Part shown: positions 11,800-58,980 of the stretch, one piece after another
Numbering within the stretch: the first letter of the stretch is position 1
Layout: each line of letters begins with the position of its first letter
From: Eledone cirrhosa
Lineage: Eukaryota
DNA length: 64,000 bases
NCBI GenBank assembly: GCA_964016885.1
Contig: OZ024747.1
Location: forward strand, 85,622,001 to 85,686,000
Direction: 5' to 3'
Translations under genes and position numbers: made by a program
Notes under the pieces: model-generated
Databases searched by the model: none
Told to the model about the DNA's origin: nothing
What the model saw: the letters and a program-made list of their open reading frames with translations, nothing else

Positions 11800-13900
11800 A
11801 GCAAAAGTTTACTTTATGGTATCTCTCCACACATCGCGATCCTTTGTCATCACCTCTGTGAGTCTCAGTGATTTGAAGTCAGCTCTCATAACCTCTGCCC
11901 AGGTCTTTCTTGATCTACCTCTACTGCAACTTCCTTCCACTGGCATTTCTTCACCCAACAAGTATTTTCCATGTGCATCACATGTCCAAACCAATGCAGT
12001 CTTCTCTCCTGCACACCATCTTGAATTCCTGTTAAACCCAGCTTCTCCTTCAACTCGGCCAAACTCTGCCTCACTCTCACACATACATTGCACATCTAAT
12101 GAAGCATGTTTGCTCCATTTCTTTCCTGTATATGCATGTCCTCTGCAGTCACAGCCTATGTTTCACTACCATATAGCATCGCACTTCACACACAAGTATC
12201 ATACAGTTGTCCTTTTGTATGTAGGGAGAAACCTTTTGTGGTCAATATTGGGTGTAGCTCTGAACTTTTTCCACCCTATCTTTATTCTAGCTATTATGCT
12301 CTCAGAACACCCTCCTCCATTACTAATTACATTTCCTACATAGCAGAAGCTATCAACCACTTCTATGGGTCCTTCCTGTGACTGAAATAGGCTTACATTA
12401 CTGCTTATCTTCCCTTCATGTTAGCTTACTCGTTATCCCACATCTCTTGTGTACCCAATATTTACATTGTGTACATCGTACAGGGTTAATGCATTCTCCC
12501 TTTCTACATATTGAGCAGGACCACTTCGTTGAAGGAATCAAGGTCCTATCTTCACTCCTACTCACTAGCACTTTAGTTTTGGCAAAGTTTACTCTTAGGT
12601 CTTTTGATTCTAAATTTTGCTTCCATAGTCAGAACTTATTTTCTAGCTCTTTAATGGATTTGGCTAGGACAAAATCATCTACATAGAGAAGTTCCAATGG
12701 CCAGCCAGTCTTAAAGTCTATTATATCTTGAAGGACTGAAATGAATAGTACTGAGTTAAGAACCAAACCCTGATGAACTCCTACTTGTACCTTGAATTTC
12801 TCACTAAACACAATTCCTACTCTCACTTTGCTGACAGCGCCTCTGTACATGATTTGCACTGCTCTCACCAACCATTCTTCTACACCTAATTTCCTTAAGG
12901 ACCACCAGATAATAGATCAGGGTACTCTGTCAAACACTTTTTCTAGATCAACAAAAGCTAGGTATAGTGGCATATTTTTGGCAAAGAACTTCTCTTGTAG
13001 TTGCCTCATGAAAAAGAAGACATCTGTAGTACTTTTCCCAGGCATGAAATCAAACTGCATTTCGTCTAATTTGACCTTTTCTTTAGTTAGTTGCTCTATA
13101 ACTCTTTCCATCACTTGGTTCATTAGTTTTATTCCTCTATAGTTGCTCCCCTCTAGGGCATCACCTTTGCCCTTCTAGCAATTTACAATAGTACTGCTGT
13201 GCCAGTTATTGGGTATGACACTATCCTGTATTAACTGATTGACAATGCAAGTCACTAGTTTGACTCCTACTTCTGACTTTTAGTATCTTAGCAGTTATCT
13301 CATAGTCGTGCAGCTTTACTATTTTTCATCTATTTGATTGCTTCTTTAACCCTATAACATTTCCAGGCCTCTTTCTTTAGAGCATCAGTGATGCTAAATA
13401 CACTGGTGTCGTTTCTAATACACTTTTCTCAAACATCACGATTCACACTAACACACTGCCTTGCAATGCTGAACACTTCATGTCTCTGATCTTCACATCT
13501 CAGGACGTTGGCAAACTTTCTTTCTTCAGCCTCTCTCTCAGCTGTGTATACTTGTCACCTAGCACCGGTCTCTGCTAGGTGACAAGTATACACAGCTCCG
13601 AGTCTTTTTCCAGTCTTTCCAAGCCTGTCTCTTGGCTTCAATTGCTCCATTTTCTGAGCTGTTCCACCACCAGGTCACCCTCTGACTGGCTGGTGCTCTA
13701 ATCCATAAGTCACATAAGTAGTTTGCAAAAGGTTGTCACATAAGAATTACCAGTTGTTCTCTATATCATAGATATCTAGCTCTTCAGCTTCCAGACCCTC
13801 TGTCTTCATATTTTCCTGCCTGTGCTGTTCTGTCTCATGTTTATTTTGATATCACTAATAACTAACTTGTGCTGAGTGGTGCATTCCTCTCCGGGGAAGC
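11800..13900 (-). mobile_element. Degenerate RTE-clade LINE (RT and C-terminal region), WBP2 intron 1
   Basis: Frameshifted ORFs with QFDFMPGKSTTD, LAFVDLEKVFDRVP, VGVHQG, LLYVDD and RRLHWFGHV. Confidence 0.92.
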
Positions 13901-15770: not shown

Positions 15771-16851
15771 GTATAATTAGTGTTATTTCCTATCCACAGC
15801 CATGCAGCAAAGAAACCATCAACAAAACTCCTCTATTTACAAAACATTCAACTATAATAATACGCCATGTGTGTTTGTATATATCTGCTTCTAACACTTT
15901 CAAATTTTCACACGCATACACACAATGCTTTCTCTATCTCAGTCCCAATTTGTCCACTTTCCAATCACTAGGTCCTCGGTTCTAACCCCATGTCTGTCCC
16001 TGTAAATCATTATTTCTCTTAAGTTAGTGTCATTTGTACATTTATGCTGAACATTTCTGTAATTATATTCTAGAAACAAAGTGTTAAAATATCATTATCT
16101 TTAATCACTTCCAGGTGTCAGTAATCAACATAAACTATAGGGTTTCTCTTATTCAAACCATTAATTTTTCTAAACGTAAATTCTCCAGTTTATATGATTG
16201 TTTCATATATTTAGTGTTCCTGGTATATATGACACGATTCCTGGACTACAAAGATTAAAACATTTAACGCTATTGCCGTCATTATTGACAGCATTGGTGA
16301 ACTAGTCAACAAATAATCAAGGATAATACCGCAGATGGATGGAAAACTTCTAGAACACACACCATAAACACTGGTAGCCACACATCCGTTTGAACTATAT
16401 AATATCCATACATATAAGTGTAAATATATATATATATATATATAGTATATGTATAAACTGTGTGTGTGAATGTAGTTTTTCTGTGTATATATTGGTCTCT
16501 ATACACTATTTTAACTATATACATACATACATACATACATTAGAGGAGTGTATATATATTCGTTTAGTTGTTTTCATCAGTAGACTGTGGTTATGTCGTG
16601 GTGTACATACATAAACACACACACATATATATATATATAAAGATTCAGGGCCCCGACGGTCGAGCTCCGGCCGTTTCGACAGCTAGATCCGATATATATA
16701 TATATATATAGTTACAATTATGTTCGTGTACATAATGTATATAAACATTATATATATGTATATACATACATGTATATAAACGATTACGTTGATTGTTTTT
16801 TGCATAAATTTATGATATATATATGTATGTATTTAATGAGGTTTTACTAAC

Positions 16852-25747: not shown

Positions 25748-27865
25748 AGTAGTGGTGGTGGTAGTGTTTGTAGTAGTGGTGCTGGTGGTGTTTGTAGTAG
25801 TGGTAGTAGTGGTGGTGGTGGTGTTTGTAGTAGTGGTGGTGGTAGTGTTTGTAGTAGTGGTAGTAGTGGTGCTGGTGGTGGTAGTGTTTGTAGTAGTGGT
25901 GCTGGTGGTGTTTGTAGTAGTGGTAGTAGTGGTGGTGGTGGTGGTAGTGTTTGTAGTAGTGGTAGTAGTGGTGCTGGTGGTGGTAGTGTTTGTAGTAGTG
26001 ATGCTGGTGGTGTTTGTAGTAGTGGTAGTAGTGGTGCTGGTGGTGGTAGTGTTTGTAGTAGTGGTGGTGGTGGTGTTTGTAGTAGTGGTGCTGGTGGTGG
26101 TAGTGTTTGTAGTAGTGGTGCTGGTGGTGGTAGTGTTTGTAGTAGTGGTGGTGGTAGTGTTTGTAGTAGTGGTGCTGGTGGTGGTAGTGTTTGTAGTAGT
26201 GGTGGTGGTAGTGTTTGTAGTAGTGGTGGTGGTAGTGTTTGTAGTAGTGGTGGTGGTAGTGTTTGTAGTAGTGGTGCTGGTGGTGTTTGTAGTAGTGGTA
26301 GTAGTGGTGCTGGTGGTGGTAGTGTTTGTAGTAGTGGTGCTGGTGGTGGTAGTGTTTGTAGTAGTGGTGGTGGTAGTGTTTGTAGTAGTGGTGCTGGTGG
26401 TGTTTGTAGTATTGGTAGTAGTGGTGCTGGTGGTGTTTGTAGTAGTGGTGATGGTGGTGTTTGTAGTATTGGTGCTAGTGGTGATGGTGGTGTTTGTAGT
26501 ATTGGTAGTAGTGGTGCTGGTGGTGTTTGTAGTAGTGGTGATGGTGGTGTTTGTAGTATTGGTGCTAGTGGTGATGGTGGTGTTTGTAGTATTGGTAGTA
26601 GTGGTGATGGTGGTGTTTGTAGTATTGGTAGTAGTGGTGATGGTGGTGTTTGTAGTATTGGTAGTAGTGGTGCTGGTGGTGTTTGTAGTAGTGGTGATGG
26701 TGGTGTTTGTAGTATTGGTGCTAGTGGTGATGGTGGTGTTTGTAGTATTGGTAGTAGTGGTGCTGGTGGTGTTTGTAGTAGTGGTGATGGTGGTGTTTGT
26801 AGTATTGGTGCTAGTGGTGATGGTGGTGTTTGTAGTATTGGTAGTAGTGGTGCTGGTGGTGTTTGTAGTATTGGTAGTAGTGGTGCTGGTGGTGTTTGTA
26901 GTAGTGGTGATGGTGGTGTTTGTAGTATTGGTGCTAGTGGTGATGGTGGTGTTTGTAGTATTGGTAGTAGTGGTGATGGTGGTGTTTGTAGTATTGGTAG
27001 TAGTGGTGCTGGTGGTGTTTGTAGTAGTGGTGATGGTGGTGTTTGTAGTATTGGTGCTAGTGGTGATGGTGGTGTTTGTAGTATTGGTAGTAGTGGTGCT
27101 GGTGGTGTTTGTAGTATTGGTAGTAGTGGTGATGGTGGTGTTTGTAGTATTGGTAGTAGTGGTGCTGGTGGTGTTTGTAGTATTGGTAGTAGTGGTGCTG
27201 GTGGTGTTTGTAGTATTGGTAGTAGTGGTGATGGTGGTGTTTGTAGTAATGGTGCTAGTGGTACTGGTGGTGTTTGTAGTATTGGTAGTAGTGGTGATGG
27301 TGGTGTTTGTAGTATTGGTAGTAGTGGTGATGGTGGTGTTTGTAGTAATGGTGCTAGTGGTACTGGTGGTGTTTGTAGTATTGGTAGTAGTGGTGCTGGT
27401 GGTGTTTGTAGTATTGGTAGTAGTGGTGATGGTGGTGTTTGTAGTAATGGTGCTAGTGGTACTGGTGGTGTTTGTAGTATTGGTAGTAGTGGTGCTGGTG
27501 GTGTTTGTAGTATTGGTAGTAGTGGTGCTGGTGGTGTTTGTAGTATTGGTAGTAGTGGTGCTGGTGGTGTTTGTAGTATTGGTAGTAGTGGTGATGGTGG
27601 TGTTTGTAGTATTGGTAGTAGTGGTGCTGGTGGTGTTTGTAGTATTGGTAGTAGTGGTGCTGGTGGTGTTTGTAGTATTGGTAGTAGTGGTGATGGTGGT
27701 GTTTGTAGTATTGGTAGTAGTGGTGCTGGTGGTGTTTGTAGTAATGGTGCTAGTGGTACTGGTGGTGTTTGTAGTATTGGTAGTAGTGGTGCTGGTGGTG
27801 TTTGTAGTATTGGTAGTAGTGGTGCTGGTGGTGTTTGTAGTATTGGTAGTAGTGGTGCTGGTCGT
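25748..27865. repeat. GT-rich minisatellite, ~33-bp unit GGTGGTGTTTGTAGTATTGGTAGTAGTGGTGCT with shorter variants
   Basis: Direct tandem periodicity. Explains the 730-769 aa ORFs. Confidence 0.95.
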
Positions 27866-28041
27866 GTTTGTACTCATGCTGGTAGAGGCTGTAGTGGTGG
27901 TGATGGTAATGGTAAAGGCTGTAATAGAGATGCTGGTGGTGTGACCACATCTAGTTCGTACATCCCATTTTGACATGGCCTCCATAGTCTGATGCCCTTC
28001 TCAACTGCATCCAAGCATTAGAACTCAGTATTTCCCATTAA

Positions 28042-30565: not shown

Positions 30566-33160
30566 GGTGGTGTTAGTGGTTGTAGTACTAGTGGTAGTGT
30601 TGGTAGTGGTGTTAGTGGTTGTAGTATTAGTGGTAGTGTTGGTAGTGGTTGTAGTACTAGTGGTAGTGTTGGTAGTGGTGTTAGTGGTTGTAGTACTAGT
30701 GGTAGTGTCGGTAGTGGTGTTAGTGGTTGTAGTACTAGTGGTAGTGTTGGTAGTGGTGTTAGTAGTTGTAGTGTTGGTAGTGGTGTTAGTGGTTGTAGTA
30801 TAGTATTAGTGGTAGTGTTGGTAGTGGTGTTAGTGGTTGTAGTACTAGTGGTAGTGTTGGTAGTGGTGTTAGTGGTTGTAGTATAGTATTAGTCGTAGTG
30901 TTGGTAGTGGTGTTAGTGGTTGTAGTACTAGTGGTAGTGTTGGTAGTGGTGTTAGTGGTTGTAGTATAGTATTAGTGGTAGTGTTGGTAGTGGTGTTAGT
31001 GGTTGTAGTACTAGTGGTAGTGTTGGTAGTGGTGTTAGTGGTTGTAATACAAGTGGTAGTGTTGGTAGTGGTGTTAGTGGTTGTAGTACTAGTGGTAGTG
31101 TTGGTAATGGTGTTAGTGGTTGTAGTATAGTATTAGTGGTAGTGTTGGTAGTGGTGTTAGTGGTTGTAGTACTAGTGGTAGTGTTGGTAGTGGTGTTAGT
31201 GGTTGTAGTATTAGTGGTAGTGTTGGTAGTGGTGTTAGTGGTTGTAGTACAAGTGGTAGTTTGGTAGTGGTGTTAGTGGTTGTAGTACTAGTGGTAGTGT
31301 TGGTAGTGGTGTTAGTGGTTGTAATACAAGTGGTAGTGTTGGTAATGGTGTTAGTGGTTGTAGTATAGTATTAGTGGTAGTGTTGGTAGTGGTGTTAGTG
31401 GTTGTAGTATTAGTGGTAGTGTTGGTAGTGGTGTTAGTGGTTGTAGTACAAGTGGTAGTGTTGGTAGTGGTGTTAGTGGTTGTAGTACTAGTGGTAGTGT
31501 TGGTAGTGGTGTTAGTGGTTGTAGTATTAGTGGTAGTGTTGGTAGTGGTGTTAGTGGTTGTAGTACTAGTGGTAGTGTTGGTAGTGGTGTTAGTGGTTGT
31601 AGTACTAGTGGTAGTGTTGGTAGTGGTGTTAGTGGTTGTAGTATTAGTGGTAGTGTTGGTAGTGGTGTTAGTGGTTGTAGTACTAGTGGTAGTGTTGGTA
31701 GTGGTGTTAGTGGTTGTAGTACTAGTGGTAGTGTTGGTAGTGGTGTTAGTGGTTGTAGTACTAGTGGTAGTGTTGGTAGTGGTGTTAGTGGTTGTAGTAC
31801 TAGTGGTAGTGTTGGTAGTGGTGTTAGTGGTTGTAGTACTAGTGGTAGTGTTGGTAGTGGTGTTAGTGGTTGTAGTACTAGTAGTAGTGTTGGTAGTGGT
31901 GTTAGTGGTTGTAGTACTAGTGGTAGTGTTGGTAGTGGTGTTAGTGGTTGTAGTACTAGTGGTAGTGTTGGTAGTGGTGTTAGTGGTTGTAATACAAGTG
32001 GTAGTGTTGGTAGTGGTGTTAGTGGTTGTAGTACTAGTGGTAGTGTTGGTAATGGTGTTAGTGGTTGTAGTATAGTATTAGTGGTAGTGTTGGTAGTGGT
32101 GTTAGTGGTTGTAGTACTAGTGGTAGTGTTGGTAGTGGTGTTAGTGGTTGTAGTATTAGTGGTAGTGTTGGTAGTGGTGTTAGTGGTTGTAGTACAAGTG
32201 GTAGTTTGGTAGTGGTGTTAGTGGTTGTAGTACTAGTGGTAGTGTTGGTAGTGGTGTTAGTGGTTGTAATACAAGTGGTAGTGTTGGTAATGGTGTTAGT
32301 GGTTGTAGTATAGTATTAGTGGTAGTGTTGGTAGTGGTGTTAGTGGTTGTAGTATTAGTGGTAGTGTTGGTAGTGGTGTTAGTGGTTGTAGTACAAGTGG
32401 TAGTGTTGGTAGTGGTGTTAGTGGTTGTAGTACTAGTGGTAGTGTTGGTAGTGGTGTTAGTGGTTGTAGTATTAGTGGTAGTGTTGGTAGTGGTGTTAGT
32501 GGTTGTAGTACTAGTGGTAGTGTTGGTAGTGGTGTTAGTGGTTGTAGTACTAGTGGTAGTGTTGGTAGTGGTGTTAGTGGTTGTAGTATTAGTGGTAGTG
32601 TTGGTAGTGGTGTTAGTGGTTGTAGTACTAGTGGTAGTGTTGGTAGTGGTGTTAGTGGTTGTAGTACTAGTGGTAGTGTTGGTAGTGGTGTTAGTGGTTG
32701 TAGTACTAGTGGTAGTGTTGGTAGTGGTGTTAGTGGTTGTAGTACTAGTGGTAGTGTTGGTAGTGGTGTTAGTGGTTGTAGTACTAGTGGTAGTGTTGGT
32801 AGTGGTGTTAGTGGTTGTAGTACTAGTAGTAGTGTTGGTAGTGGTGTTAGTGGTTGTAGTACTAGTGGTAGTGTTGGTAGTGGTGTTAGTGGTTGTAGTA
32901 CTAGTGGTAGTGTTGGTAGTGGTGTTAGTGGTTGTAGTATTAGTGGTAGTGTTGGTAGTGGTGTTAGTGGTTGTAGTACTAGTGGTAGTGTTGGTAGTGG
33001 TGTTAGTGGTTGTAGTATTAGTGGTAGTGTTGGTAGTGGTGTTAGTGGTTGTAGTACTAGTGGTAGTGTTGGTAGTGGTGTTAGTGGTTGTAGTATTAGT
33101 GGTAGTGGTGTTAGTGGTTGTAGTATTAGTGGTAGTGTTGGTAGTGGTGTTAGTGGTAGT
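30566..33160. repeat. 39-bp minisatellite GTGGTAGTGTTGGTAGTGGTGTTAGTGGTTGTAGTACTA with a 945-bp higher-order duplication
   Basis: Tandem units. Diagnostic variants recur at a 945-bp offset. Confidence 0.95.
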
Positions 33161-33419
33161 GGTTTTAGTGATAGTTAGTGGTGTCTGTGGTAGTATTGTT
33201 GATGGTAACACCATTAGATATACAGTCGAAAGTGGTGTTGGTAGCAGTAGTAGTGGTGTTGGTGGTGGTTTTTGTGTTGGTGGTAGTGTTGTTGATATTG
33301 GTGTTGGTGGTATTGCTAGTGGTGATATTAGTATGGATGGTAGTTATAGTGGTATTTATGTGTTTCTTAGGGGTGGTGGTGGTGGTGGTGGTTGTGATAT
33401 TGGTATGTAGGTGATAGGA

Positions 33420-34590
33420 TGGTCGTGGCGACGTTAGTAAGGGTGGTTGTGATGTTAGTATAGGTGGTAGTGTTGGTGGTATGATGGTTGTGGTAACGTT
33501 AGTATGGGTGGTAGTGATGGTAGCGGTAATGTTAGTATGGGTGGTAGTGATGGTGGTATGATGGTAGCAGTGATGTCGGTATGATGGTTGCAGTGATGTC
33601 AGTATGGGTGGTAGTGATGGTGGTAGTGATGGGTAGTATGGGTGGTAGTGATGGTAGTAGTGATGGTGGTAGTGATGTCAGTATGGGTGGTAGTAATGGT
33701 GGTATGGTGGTGGTAGTGATGGTGGTAGTGATGGTAGTATGGGTGGCAGTGATGGGAGTAGTGATGTTAGTATGGGTGGTAGTGATGGTGGTATGGTAGT
33801 AGTAGTAGTGATGTCAGTATGGGTTGTAGTGATGGTGGTAGTGATGTTAGTATGGGTGGTAGTGATGATGGTGGTATGGTGGTGGTAGTAGTGATGTCAG
33901 TATGGGTTGTAGTGATGGTGGTAGTGATGTTAGTATGGGTGGTAGTGATGTTAGTATGGGTGGTAGTGATGATGGTGGTATGGTGGTGGTAGTGATGTCA
34001 GTATGAGTGGTAGTGATGGTGGTATGGTGGTGGTATGGTAGTAGTAGTAGTGATGTCAGTATGGGTTGTAGTGATGTTAGTATGGGTGGTAGTGATGATG
34101 GTGGTATGGTGGTGGTAGTGATGTTAGTATGGGTTGTAGTGATGTTAGTATGGGTGGTAGTGATGATGGTGGTATGGTGGTGGTAGTGATGTTAGTATGA
34201 GTGGTAGTGATGGTGGTATGGTGGTGTTAGTGATGGTAGTATGGGTGGTAGTGATGTCAGTATGGGTGGTAGTGATGGTGGTATGGTGGTGGTAGTGACG
34301 TCAGTATGGGTGGTAGTGATGTCAGTGTGGGTAGTAGTGATCGTGGTATGGTGGTGGTAGTGATGTCAGTATGGGTGGTAGTGATGGTGGTATGGTGGTG
34401 GTAGTGACGTCAGTATGGGTGGTAGTGATGTCAGTGTGGGTAGTAGTGATGGTGGTATGGTGGTGGTAGTGATGTCAGTATGGGTGGTAGTGATGGTGGT
34501 ATGGTGGTGGTAGTGATGTCAGTATGGGTGGTAGTGATGGTGGTATGGTGGTGGTAGTGATGTCAGTATGGGTGGTAGCGATGGTGGTAT
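33420..34590. repeat. Degenerate GTA/GAT/GGT minisatellite (~21-23 bp subunits, 44-bp dimer)
   Basis: Recurrent GTAGTGATGTCAGTATGGGTG and GTAGTGATGGTGGTATGGTGGTG. Confidence 0.85.
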
Positions 34591-35324
34591 GTAGGTATGT
34601 AGAGGTCGTTACTGAAGGTGAGTTATGTCATTGTGTCAATACTGTCACACCATCTTCATATGCAACAGTAATGTTTGTTGTTGTTGTGGTGTGAATGTCA
34701 CCACTGGACTGGACTGTTTCACTTAACTACACAACACATCGACACCACCACTGTCACCAGGAAAAGTGTTCTGGTTGTGGTGTTTGTGGTGGTAGTGGTG
34801 TTTGTGGTGGTGGTGGTTGTTCTGGTGTTGGTATTGGTGGTGGTGGTGGTAGTGGTTCTGGTATTGGTGGTGGTGGTGGTGGTGGTGGTGGTGGTGGTTC
34901 CGGTTGTGATGACAGTGGTATTGGTATTAATAGGGGTGGGGGTGGTAGTGGTGGTGGTGGTGGTTGTGATGACAGTGGTGTTGGTGGTGGTGGTGGTGGT
35001 AATAATAGTGTCGGTGGTGGTGGTGGTGGTGGTGATAATGGTGATAATGATGGTACTGGTTGTTATGGTTGTGATGATAGTGATGATGATGGTAGTTGTT
35101 GGTGATCTGGTTGTCTGATGATGGTTGTTGTGGTAGTAGTGGTGGTGGTGATTGTTGTGATGGTAAGTTTATTGTTGTTGGTGGTGGTAACAATGGTGAT
35201 GATAGTGTTGGTAATAACAGTGTTGATGCCCTCCAAATTATTTTATTGTTGTCTAAGTCGTTTTATTGTGTGATTATGGGTTTAGTACATGTCTGGTTTG
35301 ATGTGAAAGGTGTGTGTGTGTATG

Positions 35325-35427
<103 letters not shown>

Positions 35428-35934
35428 AGGATGAATATAAAATGAAAGTGCTTTTGTTAAAAAAGGAATTTATTAGGTATTGACATATGTTTCTGTAACA
35501 GACCGAATACCTATGTATCGCTGCTTGCGTAATCATATAATGTTAGCAAGTATTCGATAGCAAATGTATAATCAGTTGTCACTTCTTCAGAGATTTTGGA
35601 TAAACCTGCACGTACGCTGTTCATCTCTAACGTAACGATATATTATCACTACATTATTGATAACCTGAAATTTTATATATATATATATATATATATATGT
35701 CTGATGGTAGCTAAGATGGTTCCATAGGCGATATGCCAGTTGAGCACTCTATGTTCTTACAGAGCAGAGTATGATATAATAGAAAACGAAAAATCAGTGA
35801 TGCATCAGGGTTTATTTCAAGGTACCAAAAGTTTGTTTTATAAATATTGAGATCTTAACGGTTCAAGTTTTTCCTGGATAGTCAGGAAAAACTTGAACCG
35901 TTAAGATATGTCAATATTTATAAAACAGACTTTG

Positions 35935-35995
35935 TATTTTATCTGATGAGAGCATACCAAAGTTTTGGTGCCCTTGAAATATATATAATAGAATA
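35935..35995 (+). ncRNA. Minimal type-I hammerhead ribozyme candidate (PLE-type)
   Basis: Stem I TATTTTAT/ATAGAATA, core CTGATGA (35943), stem II around GCA-ACCAAA/TTTGGTGC, GAAA (35976), 2-bp stem III with palindromic ATAT loop, AUA cleavage triplet. Confidence 0.65.
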
Positions 35996-36161: not shown

Positions 36162-36412
36162 ATAGGAAAATGTTTGACCCTGACGGCAGAGCTCAAGCCG
36201 TTTCAACGGCTATTTCTGGACTAAATTAGAATTTTTAGCGTGGTAATTTACCACGCTAAAAATTCTAATTTAGTCCAGAAATAGCCGTCGAAGTGGCTTG
36301 AGCTCTGCCGTCAGGGTCAAACATTTTCCTATTACCCACTCTACTACCCTAAGTATTGAGTACTCTGGTGCGTTATGGTCCATCTGGTTCCTTACCACAC
36401 CTCCTTCGTTAT
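36162..36412 (+). mobile_element. Fold-back element: 171-bp palindrome plus conserved tail (putative inverted PLE terminus)
   Basis: 85-bp arms, 1-nt loop at 36247, 3 mismatches. Tail TACCCACTCTACTACCCTAAGTATTGAGTAC... is shared with the 37553 element. Confidence 0.75.
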
Positions 36413-36838
36413 GTATATATAGATATTTTGGGTCATGCGGCCAAATAAAAACACACACACCAGTGAGTTTTACTTTAGTTTATTATTAGTTAGGTAACTA
36501 ATCCATTCCTCAGTTAGTTTGTCATATTTGATTATCAAAGCTCTTTTGTCACACATCTGTGGCCTTCTCAACAACTAATCTTGCTCCTCTGTATCTCCTC
36601 TTTGTTCCGATCTTGTTCTGTTTACTCCATCTTGTCTTCTCTGAGGTGCGTATGTAGTCTGTGCATGCATGTGTGTTTGTGTCTGTGTGTATATCTCTGT
36701 ATGCTGCTACTTCCACAGGTTTCTGTGTTTGTCATGTGTATGTGTACCTATGTATCTAAAAAGCAATTACATAAGATCAACAGCCAAGTGCATTTCTATG
36801 TCGTCAGCCAGCTGCTGTCATGCAATTTCACAGTTTAA

Positions 36839-37059
36839 CCCTTTAGCATTTAAACCGGCCATATCCGGCCAGAGTATTCTCACCTCTTTCTGTTCAAAAC
36901 GGTCGTAACCAGCTACTCATACTGATGTTAAGGTATTGTTCGCAAAATAAATAATATCAAAATCTCATAGATTCAATATTATGTGGGATAATTATGTGAG
37001 ATAAAGCCTTTACCGTGAAAATACAATAGTATATATAAAGTAATGTAAATGCTAAAGGG
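36839..37059. mobile_element. piggyBac-like MITE (same family)
   Basis: TTAA|CCCTTTAGCATTT ... AAATGCTAAAGGG|TTAA. Confidence 0.9.
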
Positions 37060-37499
37060 TTAAGGTAGGATTGGACTTGTAATGCCAGTTTGTGTAATAG
37101 ACTGGAGAATCACTTTGTCACTAAGGTGCATGTGAGTCAATATCACAGCAAAGAATGGACAGGAAAATTTACAGAGATAAATATTATGATTAAAAATAAA
37201 CAAACAGACTTATGACTGAATTAGTACAAAAGACACTGCAAAACACGTTAACACTGGTATGATCGAAACATTTAGACTTTCATCAAAGGAAAGAAGAAGG
37301 ATGGGCCGTAGAAGAGTAGAAGGAAGAAGAGAACAAGGAGAGAGTGGAAGAAGGGAAAGAGAGAAATTAATAAAAATGCATTTTATATATATATAAATGT
37401 AATATCAGCATACAGAGAAACTGTTAAGATAGACAGACAATTGCTTGTCTACCTCTTCAGCCACCTGCTGGCATGTGTGTGTGTATATGTATGTATATA

Positions 37500-37552
<53 letters not shown>

Positions 37553-37557
<5 letters not shown>

Positions 37558-37750
37558 AACGAGTAGGACCCCGACAGCTGAGCTCAAGCCGTTTCAACGG
37601 CTAATTCTGGTCCAGAATTAGCCATTGAAACGGCTTGAGCTCAGCCGTCGGGGTCCTACTCGTTCCTATTACCCACTCTACTACCCTAAGTATTGAGTAC
37701 TTTGGTGCGTTATGGTCCACCTGGTTCCTTACCACATTTCCTTCGTTATA
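37553..37750 (+). mobile_element. Fold-back element: 117-bp palindrome plus the same tail, in (TA)n
   Basis: 58-bp arms, 1-nt loop at 37611, 2 mismatches. Contains GAAACGGCT-TGAGCTC-AGCCGTC (hammerhead 3' half). Confidence 0.75.
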
Positions 37751-38167: not shown

Positions 38168-38473
38168 TGGAGGCACATGGCTTAGTGGTTAGAGCATTGG
38201 CCTTGCAATCGAAGAGTTGTGAGTTCAATTCTCAGACCGGGTGATGTGTTGTTTCTCAGCTGTAGAAATGAGAGGATAGGGACTGGGATCCCTATCGTTC
38301 CACTGTAAAGTGGTCGTGGAGGTGCCACGGTAAAAAAGCACCCAGCACTCACTGTAAATGAGGTTGGTGTTAGGAAGGGCATCCAGCTGTAGAAATCAAG
38401 CCAGAATCAGTTCCCGTCCCACCCTTGCAAGCAGGGAAAAAGCGGACGTAAAATGAAATGATGATGATGATGA
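38168..38473 (+). mobile_element. tRNA-derived SINE family B with RTE-like tail (internally deleted copy)
   Basis: tRNA head GGAGGCACATGGCTTAGTGGTTAGAGCA...GAGTTCAATTCTC, then GGTTGGTGTTAGGAAGGGCATCCAG and tail GGACGTAAAATGA(TGA)n. Confidence 0.85.
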
Positions 38474-42030: not shown

Positions 42031-42294
42031 TATTTTCCGTTGTGTTGTAATATAAATATTACACACAGTAGATTATCAGCTCACGTAGAGTTTGCTCGAC
42101 GGTTCCAGTTGTAGTTCCAAAAGTAATCCGGAGAAAAATAGAAAGATTTGAATGGATACAGTTTAGTTGAAAGGAATTTATTGACACGTGTTTCTATAAC
42201 AGTTACATAACCTAAAACAGGTTATGTAACTGTTATAGAAACACGTGTCAATAAATTCCTTTCAACTAAACTGTATCCATTCAAATCTTTCTAT
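42028..42294 (-). mobile_element. Fold-back element: perfect 157-bp palindrome plus unique tail, in (TA)n
   Basis: 76-bp perfect arms (42138-42213 and 42219-42294) with an AAAAC loop. Arms contain GAAAC-ACGT-GTC (hammerhead stem III with GUC). Confidence 0.75.
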
Positions 42295-42717: not shown

Positions 42718-43045
42718 GGAGGCACATGGCTTAGTGGTTAGAGCATTGGCCTTGCAATCGAAAGGTTGTGAGTTCAATTCTCAGACCGGGTGATGTGTTG
42801 TTTCCTTGAGCAAGACACTTTATTTCACATTGCTCCAGTTTACTCAGCTGTAGAAATGAGATGATAGGGACTGAGGTCACTATCATTCCACTGCAAAGTG
42901 GACGTGCAGGTGCCACGGCAAAAAATCACCCACCACTCACTGTAAATGAGGTTGGTGTTAGGAAGGGCATCCAGCTGTAGAAATCAAGCCAGAATCAGTT
43001 CCCGTCCCACCCTTGCAAGCAGGGAAAAGCGGACGTAAAATGAAT
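42718..43045 (+). mobile_element. SINE family B, fuller copy with CORE-like segment
   Basis: Same head as 38168 plus TTCCTTGAGCAAGACACTT and the same tail. Near-identical to the 38168 copy. Confidence 0.85.
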
Positions 43046-45677: not shown

Positions 45678-46989
45678 TAACGTTTTTTTGTTAAAACATA
45701 ACACAGCCTGTGTTGTTGTTATTAAGAGATGGTAGAGAACAGATGTTGAGTCATCTCAGATACACTGATGTTGTTGGTAATATTGGTGTTGTTGATGATA
45801 GTGGTGATGCTAATGATAATTATGTTGGTGCTGATGTTGATCAAGATGATGATGATGATGATCTATTCAGAGAGAAGAGGATCGCCTTTATTGATGTCAT
45901 CACACAAACATCTGGACCCTATTTTATTTCCTGCTTTGTTGGTTTGTTTATATTTTTTCTTTTCATATTTGAAGATTGTATGGCAAATTTTTCTGTTAAT
46001 TGCCTATTAATTAAATAACGATGATGTTGATGACTTAGATAATAATGATACTACACCTTCCGTGTCATATTTATCTACATAAACTATTAACTACAAAAGC
46101 TAAACCTGGTACATATATATATATTAGGATCATCTACTTAAACTATTAACTATAAGTGCTAACCTTTGTGAGTATGTGCATATGGGTGTATGTGTACATA
46201 TGTGTGTATGTGTACATGTGTGTGTATGTGTACATGTGTGTATGTGTACATATGTGTGTATGTGTATGTTTTAAGTGCTACAGATTAGCAAGAGACCTAC
46301 TTTATATTTAGACAGAAGAAATTTCAACAAATATAGAGACTGGTATGAAGTAGGTTTGGTTTCTAGTCTATAGGGACTCCATCTTTAGTGCTTTATATTG
46401 CCATGGAAACACTTTCCGACCATTTCATAATCTTTTTATGTATTATAATTGATAATTGATGCGACATGACATGATGAAGGCTCCAAGTGTGCTTTCACAA
46501 ATAAAAACACGTTTCTTTTTCCTGCTTTTTTCCTTTTTCTGTTTCTTTTGATCATTGACTGTGAATTGGCAGAGTCACAGAGTTGTTAGAAGTTAGGATT
46601 AAGTGGTATTTGATCTGGGCTCACTATATTCAGAGATCAAATCCTGCTGAGATTGACCTTGCCTTTCATAATTTCAAGGTTGATAGAATAAAGTACCAAT
46701 CCAGGGGGTTGGCAGAATTGTTAGAGCATCAGAAAGGTGCTACGTAATACATGTTTTGGTTCATAATCTTCTGAGTTCAAATTCCAGACCATTTGTAACC
46801 TACTTATAGCCTGTGTGAACAATTAAACCTAAAGAACCATTATGGTTCCTGAGGCTTCACCCAGCATTGGCTTGAAGAATGGCTGGGTGGAATGTATATT
46901 TGTGTATCCTGATTTTTAGAATAGGTACACTATATCCCTTTGTGTTGTATGAGATGACTGAAATATTTGGCATCAGGAAGGGTGCCCAG

Positions 46990-47720
46990 CAGCAAAACAC
47001 TGCCTCAAAACATTTCATCCAACCCATACTTCTAAAGTTTCCTCTCTCCAATGCATTTCCTTTGCCTTTGTAGCAGTTGACGATGATGATGCTATACCAG
47101 TCATTGATGACTCCATTCAATAATACCTGATTTATCCTCTGTGTGACAAGCATGTGACCTACCATTCCTGATGCTTTCAGTATCTTGGCAACTATCCCTG
47201 ACATCCCACCTGCCTTTCCTGTCTTCATATCATTGATTGCTTTACCTATGACACTACTGCTAACCTGAATGGCTGGTCCTTCAGTTGAATTTACTTGTGG
47301 TAGCCCTTCCTTCTCCTGTGATTTTTCTTCATTCAACAGTCCTTCATAATAACACTTCCAAGTTTCTTTCTTTTCAGCATTGGTGAGGGCAAGTTCACCA
47401 GTCATTCTGAATGCACTTCTCTCCAACTATGTCTTGATTTTCCCTACTATGCTGCCTTGCAAGCTGGAACACAGGACCTTCACAGCTTAAGACACATGCA
47501 AATGTCTTACTTTCTGGTGCACCTAGCTTCTTGGTATAGCTCCCTGCTTTCCCCATGTTTCAATTCTTCCACACCTGTTTCTTTAATTGCCTCACCTACA
47601 CTACTATTCCATTACAATGTTACCCTCCATCTTTGTGGAGCCTTGCACCAGCCACAGACCTTATTTGCAGCCTTCAGCAGATTGTTCTGCAAGAACCCTG
47701 CTTCCTTGCTGTGATAGGCA
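46990..47720 (-). mobile_element. RTE LINE internal fragment (linker/RT N-terminus)
   Basis: KAINDMKTGKAGG and IVNCYKGKGNALERGNFR motifs. A related fragment lies at 9290-9590 (+). Confidence 0.85.
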
Positions 47721-49752: not shown

Positions 49753-52700
49753 CATATATACACAATATACTCACACACACATATACACCATATAGACACA
49801 CATAATATACTCACACACACATATACACCATATAGACACACATAATATACTCACACACACATACACACCATATAGACACACATAATATACTCACACACAC
49901 ATACACACCATATAGACACACATAATATACTCACACACACATACACACCATATAGACACACATAATATACTCACACACACATATACACCATATAGACACA
50001 CATAATATACTCACACACACATATACACCATATAGACACACATAATATACTCACACACACATACACACCATATAGACACACATAATATACTCACACACAC
50101 ATACACACCATATAGACACACATAATATACTCACACACACATATACACCATATAGACACACATAATATACTCACACACACATACACACCATATAGACACA
50201 CATAATATACTCACACACACATATACACCATATAGACACACATAATATACTCACACACACATATACACCATATAGACACACATAATATACTCACACACAC
50301 ATACACACCATATAGACACACATAATATACTCACACACACATATACACCATATAGACACACATAATATACTCACACACACATATACACCATATAGACACA
50401 CATAATATACTCACACACACATACACACCATATAGACACACACATAATATACTCACACACACATATACACCATATAGACACACACATAATATACTCACAC
50501 ACACATATACACCATATAGACACACATAATATACTCACACACACATATACACCATATAGACACACATAATATACTCACACACACATATACACCATATAGA
50601 CACACATAATATACTCACACACACATATACACCATATAGACACACATAATATACTCACACACACATACACACCATATAGACACACATAATATACTCACAC
50701 ACACATATACACCATATAGACACACATAATATACTCACACACACATATACACCATATAAACACACATAATATACTCACACACACATATACATCATATAAA
50801 CACACATAATATACTCACACACACATATACACCATATAAACACACATAATATACTCACACACACATACACACCATATAAACACACATAATATACTCACAC
50901 ACACATATACACCATATAGACACACACATAATATACTCACACACACATATACACCATATAGACACACATAATATACTCACACACACATATACACCATATA
51001 AACACACATAATATACTCACACACACATATACACCATATAAACACACATAATATACTCACACACACATACACACCATATAAACACACATAATATACTCGC
51101 ATATGCACATATACACCATATAGACACACACATAATATACTCACACACACATATACACCATATAAACACACATAATATACTCACACACACATACACACCA
51201 TATAAACACACATAATATACTCACACACACATATACACCATATAGACACACATAATATACTCACACACACACATATACACCATATAGACACACACATAAT
51301 ATACTCACACACACATATACACCATATAAACACACATAATATACTCACACACACATACACACCATATAAACACACATAATATACTCACACACACATATAC
51401 ACCATATAGACACACACATAATATACTCACACACACATATACACCATATAGACACACACATATACACCATATAGACACACATAATATACTCACACACACA
51501 TATACACCATATAGACACACATAATATACTCACACACACATATACACCATATAGACACACACATAATATACTCACACACACATATACACCATATAGACAC
51601 ATAATATACTCACACACACATATACACCATATAGACACACATAATATACTCACACACACATATACACCATATAGACACACCCATAATATACTCACACAGA
51701 CATATACACCATATAGACACACACATAATATACTCACACACACATATACACCATATAGACACACACATAATATACTCACACACACATATACACCATATAG
51801 ACACATAATATACTCACACACACATATACACCATATAAACACGCATAATATACTCACACACACATATACACCATATAAACACACATAATATACTCACACA
51901 CACATATACACCATATAGACACACATAATATACTCACACACACATATACACCATATAGACACACATAATATACTCACACACACATATACACCATATAGAC
52001 ACATAATATACTCACACACACACATATACACCATATAAACACATAATATACTCACACACACATATACACCATCTATCTATCTAAGGCGGGTAAAATTCCC
52101 GAGATCCATGGACGAGTTCTCTCCAGCGGTCTCTGTCCCTCATTATCGCTGCCATATCCTGCATCTCCAACAGACCAGTGTCTGTCCTTAGGGCATCAAC
52201 ATATGTTAACCTTGGTCTTCCTCTTCTAGTGTGTCCATGTAGGGGCTCCCAAAGGAGCACTGAGTGCAATGTCAACTCTGGATGTCGGTGAGCATGTCCA
52301 GCCAACCTCAATCTCCTCTGTGTCACTTTTGAGCTGACTTTTGGGATGCTCCCATACAGCTCTGAGTTTTTCATCCTCAGTGTATACTGATTAATGTTCA
52401 GAGCCATCCTCAGCATTCTCGTGTCTATATACACCATATAGACACATAATATACTCATATATAATATACTCATATATAATATACACCATCCTCAGCATTC
52501 TCGTGTCTATATACACCATATAGACACATAATATACTCATATATAATATACACCATATATAATATACTCATATATAATATACACCATATATAATATACTC
52601 ATATATAATATACACCATATAGACACATATACACCATATAAACACACATAATATACTCACACACACATATACACCATATAGACACACACATAATATACTC

Positions 52701-58914: not shown

Positions 58915-58980
58915 TATTTTATCTGATGAAAGCGCACCATAATTTGCCTTGGTTGCCCTTGAAATATATATAATAAAATA
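58915..58980 (+). ncRNA. Minimal type-I hammerhead ribozyme candidate (same family)
   Basis: Perfect stem I TATTTTAT/ATAAAATA, CTGATGA (58923), imperfect stem II, GAAA (58961), TATATATA stem III/loop, AUA cleavage triplet. Confidence 0.65.

What the first reader, a model, noticed from the sequence alone, without database searches (positions are those of the whole stretch)
36162..37750. Two long palindromes that fold back inside a hammerhead and share a unique tail
Seen: 171-bp and 117-bp palindromes with 1-nt loops are each followed by the same ~80-bp tail. The arms contain GAAACGGC-(palindromic GAGCTC loop)-GCCGTC-(A/G)GGGTC, i.e. GAAA, stem III, GUC and the stem I 3' strand. The CUGANGA half is replaced by the inverted copy. 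The two elements differ from each other more than each element's arms do, so each palindrome formed after the copies diverged. This asymmetric palindrome + tail layout is not a MITE. Inference: a second PLE/retrozyme family whose cDNA snaps back in ribozyme stem II, leaving dsRNA-forming insertions.
Basis: partly seen in the sequence, partly recalled or inferred. Interest (0 to 1): 0.78.

Follow-up and report, generated by a model that had tools for sequence, protein, structure and literature searches.

The report
Head-to-head Penelope-like retroelement stubs
The two hairpins are short stubs of a very abundant Penelope-like retrotransposon, each likely made when the element's RNA was copied from two fixed start points onto the two ends of a cut in a TA repeat and the two copies were joined head to head.

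Summary
Both palindromes and the shared 79-nt tail are real. They are 5'-truncated insertions of an autonomous Penelope-like element (PLE) of the Hydra clade: a 3.6-kb copy encodes a telomerase-like RT with a C-terminal GIY-YIG-type nuclease. The genome holds at least 63,408 arms; 28,944 end at one fixed base against (TA)n and 24,708 carry the tail. Inverted copy plus tail is a published PLE hallmark. The hammerhead is supported by structure, but its core is the U3-A8 variant (2,017 copies) or a C3-A8 mismatch (1,488); canonical CUGANGA occurs 8 times. Simple cDNA snap-back is disfavoured: the tail-less arm is often longer than the tailed arm, and in 9 checked loci the partner is a piece of tail only. 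Both arms stop independently 55-65 nt from the inner start, which makes near-perfect palindromes. This fits two RNA-templated primings, as shown in vitro for another PLE. No peak of 5' ends at the ribozyme cut site. Expression, cleavage and editing are untested. Verdict: new family of a known kind, with useful genomic evidence on how PLE inversions form.

The parts
36162..36247 (-). E1 inner (tail-less) arm: antisense copy of the element's 3' region, starting at the fixed inner site, 86 nt, reaching into loop II
   Evidence: fixed end shared by 28,944 arms
36248..36332 (+). E1 tailed arm up to the inner site: loop II remnant, stem II 3' strand 36279-36287, GAAG (decayed GAAA) 36290-36293, stem III 36294-36310, GUC 36310-36312, stem I 3' strand 36313-36317
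   Evidence: aligned to intact copy L046 of the same subfamily; contigs continue this arm into ACCCC-TTGAAAA (loose ends at 36246)
36333..36411 (+). E1 tail, 79 nt, between inner and outer start sites
37553..37610 (-). E2 inner (tail-less) arm, 58 nt, starting at the fixed inner site in (TA)n
37611..37669 (+). E2 tailed arm up to the inner site: stem II 3' strand 37616-37624, GAAA 37627-37630, stem III 37631-37647 with GAGCTC loop, GUC 37647-37649, stem I 3' strand 37650-37654
37670..37748 (+). E2 tail, 79 nt, ending against (TA)n
   Evidence: 24,708 tail-bearing arms genome-wide
16639..16692 (-). Solo inner arm (about 55 nt) of an older sister subfamily, in (TA)n, no partner arm

Best explanation
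E1 and E2 are 5'-truncated, head-to-head insertions of a Hydra-clade Penelope-like retrotransposon into TA repeats, likely made by two separate target-primed reverse transcriptions of the element's uncleaved RNA, one from each end of the cut. Shown: membership of the repeat family, the attached RT-endonuclease ORF, two fixed 3' ends 79 nt apart, and arms that end independently. Inferred: the GIY-YIG nuclease cuts both strands in (TA)n; one 3' end primes at the outer site (giving the tailed arm) and the other at the inner site (giving the tail-less, inverted arm); both cDNAs usually stop 55-65 nt upstream of the inner site, just past the 3' strand of hammerhead stem II; host end-joining then joins the two 5'-truncated copies with 0-4 nt microhomology or a short insert. 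Because both arms stop in the same narrow zone, most products look like near-perfect palindromes with a tail. The window copies lack the 5' half of the ribozyme core and cannot be active hammerheads on their own.
For: Family: 941 candidates, the 40 scored are 99-100% alike; 63,408 arms, control 1; 24,708 with tail; 28,944 ending at one base before ATA. Autonomous partner: 710-codon open frame in L062, model pLDDT 85, top fold matches are telomerase RTs; DKT, RWR, CxCX5C, CxxC and CxH motifs read directly match the Hydra description (PMC8557442 section 11). Independent arms: of 81 short pairs kept (96 parsed, 15 dropped for failed parsing) the inner arm is longer by >5 nt in 27, the tailed arm in 11, within 5 nt in 43; no length coupling beyond the shared stop zone (22 vs 20.2 expected, p 0.35). 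In 9 loci checked by eye the partner of the inner arm is a piece of tail only, sharing no sequence with it. Genome-wide, 91, 57 and 98 junctions join an inner arm of 55 nt or more to a tailed arm reaching only about 16-24 nt past the inner site. Among 18 long pairs the inner arm is longer in 7, by up to 3.2 kb. Solo inner arms and one inner-inner pair exist. Short-read contigs also hold inner-arm-to-tail joints, and raw reads of another study show the inner end running into (TA)n. In vitro, an anole PLE cleaves and extends both strands from two internal sites that bound the tail, using uncleaved RNA (PMC11167929).
Against: 4 of the 27 'inner longer' rows (L097, L160, L203, L214) look like later internal deletions, not truncations. 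One-sided trimming of a hairpin tip after snap-back could also leave the inner arm longer. A looser BLAST parse gave length coupling (44 vs 28 expected, p 0.0002); I attribute this to over-extension across the palindromic joint, but E1 itself has both arms ending within 1 nt of each other away from the hot zone, which snap-back explains more simply. Both arms carry the same subfamily tag in 63 of 69 pairs (random pairing 15), which needs one RNA read twice or two RNAs of one source. The short-pair sample comes from the first 24 Mb of one contig; long pairs were selected for having the core in both arms. No Pfam, PDB-sequence or Rfam hammerhead hit. The cause of the 55-65-nt stop is unknown.
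Confidence: 0.72

Rival explanations
1. Snap-back: one cDNA is primed at the outer site, stalls near stem II, folds back and copies itself to the inner site; asymmetry arises later by trimming at the hairpin tip.
For: Explains identical subfamily tags (63 of 69), near-equal arms (43 of 81 within 5 nt) and E1's matched 86/85-nt arms. Self-priming was proposed for PLE palindromes (PMC3846280 Discussion).
Against: Tail-only partners (9 loci), inner arms kilobases longer, solo inner arms and an inner-inner pair, no coupling in the strict parse. It does not say why fill-in would stop at one base in 28,944 copies. Most joints have 0-1 nt microhomology (35 of 81), too little for a fold-back primer. 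No copy with the exact stem II snap-back signature (5' stem II strand plus whole loop II as spacer) stood among the short pairs listed.
Confidence: 0.18
2. The palindrome-plus-tail units are a non-autonomous element (MITE-, SINE- or retrozyme-like) that amplifies as a whole unit.
For: About 25,000 short units of similar size (my estimate); a few joints recur.
Against: Joints differ from copy to copy, and the recurring ones occur in different subfamilies; lengths grade continuously up to near full-length RT-bearing copies; no tandem ribozyme repeats; ends are not mutually inverted.
Confidence: 0.05
3. Assembly or library fold-back artefact.
For: No read or contig bridged the centres of E1 or E2.
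Against: Arms carry their own CpG-type differences; fixed ends in tens of thousands of places; joints seen in short-read contigs and the inner end in raw reads of another study.
Confidence: 0.02

Closest known systems
Hydra-clade PLEs (Craig et al. 2021, PMC8557442), including Hydra-1_Obim and Penelope-13_HM
   Same: C-terminal GIY-YIG-type nuclease, DKT, CxCX5C linker, CxxC and CxH motifs, (TA)n targets, 3' hammerhead, inverted 5'-truncated copy at the 5' end.
   Different: About 3.6 kb with a 1.2-kb 3' UTR (Hydra generally <3 kb); RWR for RWK; all Hydra ribozymes listed in File S2 have a CUGA core and short loop 2, this one has UUGANAA or CUGANAA and a 33-35-nt loop II. Hydra-1_Obim is another family: its listed ribozyme differs, and two family motifs were not found in the supplement.
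PAc, Poseidon PLE of Anolis (Frangieh et al. 2024, PMC11167929)
   Same: Two RT start sites bounding a tail, both strands extended, AT-rich target, ribozyme cleavage not needed.
   Different: Different clade; tail 79 nt against 30-40 nt; here the start site is nearly always inner on one strand and outer on the other (106 of 113 pairs).
Penelope elements of Adineta vaga (Arkhipova et al. 2013, PMC3846280)
   Same: Inverted pLTR, palindrome at the joint, optional tail on one pLTR.
   Different: Interpreted as self-priming; low copy number there, tens of thousands here.
U3-A8 hammerheads of Schistosoma Cercyon PLEs (PMC4209133) and Perreault et al. 2011 (PMC3088659)
   Same: Same covariant core, type I, palindromic loop III.
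   Different: Here stem III is a full 5-bp helix, loop II is long, and about 40% of core-bearing copies have an unpaired C3-A8.
L1 twin priming (recalled; listing only)
   Same: Both target strands prime on element RNA, giving an inverted 5' part joined by microhomology.
   Different: L1 inverts a non-overlapping upstream part; here the same stretch is copied twice from fixed sites.

Membership tests
EN+ Penelope-like element | Telomerase-like RT in a single ORF | tested here: met
   710-codon frame in L062; YRDD motif; top Foldseek matches are TERT structures, E 2e-8, TM 0.35. No Pfam hit.
EN+ Penelope-like element | GIY-YIG endonuclease | tested here: met
   VIY...YIG, R, E and N residues read; by motif only, no profile or fold hit to this domain alone was obtained.
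EN+ Penelope-like element | pLTR in tandem or inverted arrangement with a tail | tested here: met
   L016: pLTR and tail run directly into the ORF start; L070 and L136 partial tandems; inverted copies.
Hydra clade | DKT, CxCX5C linker, CxxC and CxH around E and N, no CCHH | tested here: met
   HSDKTG, CNCPDRSIC, CNLC, CKH; only one Cys between VIY and YIG (position of the CCHH cysteines is recalled).
Hydra clade | RWK motif and length under 3 kb | tested here: inconclusive
   RWR, and about 3.6 kb.
Hydra clade | (TA)n insertion | tested here: met
Hydra clade | Placement in an RT tree with reference PLEs | not tested
   Reference proteins were seen only in a paper supplement and compared by eye.
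Hammerhead ribozyme, type I (intact copies) | Three helices around the core | tested here: met
   93.4% of cells paired; 3 stem II pairs change on both sides between two lineages; stem I never varies in paired form, so is uninformative. MFE gives the three-way junction for L046 but not for L048.
Hammerhead ribozyme, type I (intact copies) | Canonical CUGANGA core | tested here: not met
   8 copies against 3,726 for the general pattern.
Hammerhead ribozyme, type I (intact copies) | Paired 3-8 positions (U3-A8 variant), free N7, GAAA, NUH | tested here: met
   2,017 UUGANAA copies with all four bases at N7; 1,488 copies have an unpaired C3-A8.
Hammerhead ribozyme, type I (intact copies) | Self-cleavage | not testable with these tools
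   No excess of 5' ends at the cut site: 57 against 98 and 91 at neighbouring positions (anchors differ slightly). No Rfam hammerhead hit.
Non-LTR retrozyme | Non-autonomous tandem ribozyme repeats | tested here: not met
   ORF-bearing copies, no tandem short units.
MITE | Inverted repeats at both termini and uniform copies | tested here: not met
   Tail lies outside the repeat; joints vary.
MITE | Target-site duplication | tested here: inconclusive
   Not discernible in (TA)n.

The most novel reading that the evidence does not exclude
PLE inversions are made by obligatory two-ended priming with a built-in stop at the ribozyme's stem II, and in this genome the process has seeded about 25,000 self-folding 55-65-bp hairpins that are a main source of the exceptional dsRNA load and A-to-I hyper-editing reported for octopus; a lineage with a dead C3-A8 core kept amplifying, showing the ribozyme fold serves as a protein-binding or stop signal rather than a catalyst.
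Probability: 0.2. Interest if true: 0.72.

Novelty: new member of a known kind. Interest (0 to 1): 0.43.

Why it matters
How PLEs make inverted repeats and tails is an open mechanistic question: self-priming was proposed from genomes (PMC3846280) and two internal start sites on both strands were shown in vitro for one element (PMC11167929). This family offers tens of thousands of natural products whose arm lengths favour two-ended priming, and names the exact sites to test. It also shows that CUGANGA-based searches and Rfam miss this ribozyme. If the host is an octopus (my inference from genome size and repeat style, not tested), the hairpins are a candidate for the unexplained high dsRNA potential and hyper-editing reported there (PMC5625713).

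Tried and rejected
Canonical CUGANGA upstream: 8 copies only. Template 5' ends set by ribozyme cleavage: 4 sample arms suggested it, but genome-wide counts show no peak (57 vs 98 and 91). Coupled arm lengths: seen with BLAST edges, gone with a strict parse. Same-molecule test by arm-to-arm distance against best other copy: inconclusive, distances similar in 17 pairs. Tail-to-loop II pairing as cause of the stop: not supported by folding. Rfam: only sub-threshold miRNA hairpin hits in the window, no hammerhead hit on 4 intact copies. Pfam and PDB sequence searches: no meaningful hit; 542 unnamed homologues of about 700 aa at 35-52% identity. No ORF piece of the element in the window. No RNA holder listed. 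Reads did not bridge E1 or E2 centres. Earlier findings: none shown. Literature searches: (0 papers with Penelope, octopus, retrotransposon, palindrome); none described this family, but Repbase and Dfam could not be searched and most subscription papers are missing.

Full report
Observation. Both palindromes are at the stated places: 85-nt arms with 3 mismatches and 58-nt arms with 2, each followed by one 79-nt tail and set in TA-rich DNA. E1 and E2 are 87.8% alike, their arms about 96.5%. E1's right arm has lost GAAA by two substitutions. No Rfam family reaches its gathering score here.

The family. A search of the window's genome (3.0 Gb) gave 941 candidates; the 40 scored were 99-100% alike. 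In the 30 loci fetched most showed the same layout, with the inverted arm starting at one fixed base and the joint differing from copy to copy. Exact patterns count 63,408 arms (control 1), 24,708 continuing into the tail and 28,944 ending at that base before ATA. These are lower bounds. In 140 regions taken by position from the first 24 Mb of contig C1, 113 head-to-head pairs were found, 106 of them one inner plus one tailed arm, and 62 unpaired arms, some of which are long pairs. From this I estimate about 25,000 short palindromic units.

The autonomous element. Longer copies continue into a 3' UTR and an ORF. L062 holds a 3.6-kb copy with a 710-codon open frame. Pfam and PDB sequence searches found nothing meaningful, but 542 homologues of similar length exist. 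The model has pLDDT 85 and its best fold matches are telomerase RTs. The protein shows DKT, RWR, CxCX5C, a VIY...YIG nuclease, CxxC and CxH, which is the description of the Hydra clade in PMC8557442 (section 11). That paper's supplement lists an octopus member, Hydra-1_Obim, with a different, canonical ribozyme, and notes an inverted 5'-truncated copy on Penelope-13_HM. I did not build a tree with references.

The ribozyme. Copies that are not cut short carry the 5' half: 3,726 matches to the general pattern, 2,017 with UUGANAA, 1,488 with CUGANAA and 8 with CUGANGA. N7 takes all four bases. U3-A8 is a known natural variant (PMC4209133; PMC3088659). An older sister subfamily keeps U3-A8 and changes stem II on both sides; on a 22-row alignment 93.4% of cells pair and three stem II pairs covary, though this is in effect two lineages. 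L046, of E1's subfamily, folds into the three-way junction (z -2.5); L048 and L236 do not fold better than shuffles. Contigs extend E1's right arm into the U3-A8 core. Rfam misses 4 of 4 intact copies. E1 and E2 lack the 5' half and cannot form the core alone.

How the inversion forms. Inverted pLTR with a 30-40-bp tail is a published PLE feature (PMC3846280; PMC8557442) and was read as self-priming. Snap-back of a tail-primed cDNA predicts that the inverted arm never holds sequence absent from the tailed arm. The data break this. In a strict parse, 96 short units were read and 15 dropped for failed parsing; of 81 the inner arm is longer by more than 5 nt in 27 (4 look like later deletions), the tailed arm in 11, and 43 are within 5 nt. 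Nine loci checked by eye join an inner arm to a piece of tail only. Genome-wide patterns give 91, 57 and 98 joints of a full inner arm to a very short tailed arm. Of 18 long pairs, chosen for having the core in both arms, the inner arm is longer in 7. Solo inner arms and an inner-inner pair occur. Both arms stop mostly 55-65 nt from the inner site, just past the 3' strand of stem II, and beyond that their lengths are not coupled (p 0.35); a looser BLAST parse did show coupling (p 0.0002), which I put down to over-extension. Joints mostly have 0-1 nt overlap (35 of 81) or short inserts. This fits the in vitro result that an anole PLE extends both strands from two internal sites bounding the tail, on uncleaved RNA (PMC11167929). 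Arms span the GUC site and 5' ends do not pile up there. Against my reading: both arms share the subfamily tag in 63 of 69 pairs, E1's arms end within 1 nt of each other away from the hot zone, and tip trimming after snap-back cannot be excluded. I put two-ended priming at about 0.72 and snap-back at 0.18.

Artefact check. Arms carry their own CpG-type changes. Short-read contigs show inner-arm-to-tail joints, and 584 raw reads of another study run from the inner end into (TA)n. No record bridged the centre of E1 or E2. No RNA run was listed, so expression, dsRNA and editing are untested.

Novelty. The kind of element, the layout and the U3-A8 core are known. The family was not found in six literature searches, and two of its motifs are absent from the Craig supplement, but repeat libraries could not be searched. 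What is new in degree: a 79-nt tail, a long loop II, about 40% of core-bearing copies with an unpaired C3-A8, a sharp shared stop, and population evidence for two-ended priming. The host is likely an octopus (inference, not tested); PMC5625713 reports exceptional dsRNA potential and hyper-editing there without naming the repeats, and PMC13282606 reports active Penelope families with no mention of palindromes or hammerheads.

What I saw of each paper: PMC3846280, passages and Discussion; PMC8557442, passages, section 11, supplement searches and part 2 of 59; PMC4209133 and PMC11167929, parts 1-2 of 4 (results and discussion; their supplements not seen and may bear on variant ribozymes and insertion structures); PMC3088659, PMC5625713, PMC13282606 and 10.64898/2026.07.22.740005, passages only. 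L1 twin priming and the position of the CCHH cysteines are recalled.

Noticed in passing
window 35852-35907 and 35939-35990; second copy near 58919: A 25-bp-arm palindrome followed by a hammerhead-like motif with canonical CTGATGA core and TTAT/ATAA stem I; likely another PLE family.
   Followed up: no
window 42138-42294: Perfect palindrome with 76-bp arms and 5-nt spacer next to (TA)n, unrelated to E1/E2; similar sequence flanks L012. Many fetched loci hold other TA-flanked palindromes, suggesting several families make such units.
   Followed up: no
window 13540-13597: Perfect 25-bp-arm palindrome with 8-nt spacer.
   Followed up: no
window 16639-16692: Solo inner arm of an older sister subfamily that stops at about the same distance from the inner site despite a different loop II.
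   Followed up: partly
genome-wide; e.g. L042, L064, L079: About 40% of core-bearing copies have an unpaired C3-A8, in at least two subfamilies, yet amplified to 1,488 counted copies.
   Followed up: partly
L097, L100, L160: Deletions between the two GCCGTC direct repeats remove GAAA and stem III in some arms.
   Followed up: no
window 25752-27872, 30567-34591, 49756-52072: Long minisatellite arrays with periods of 33, 39 and 40 nt and strong strand skew.
   Followed up: no
window 38178-38235, 42727-42784, 46857-47426: Weak tRNA-like matches (probable SINE heads) and a 189-codon frame resembling a LINE RT fragment (resemblance recalled).
   Followed up: no
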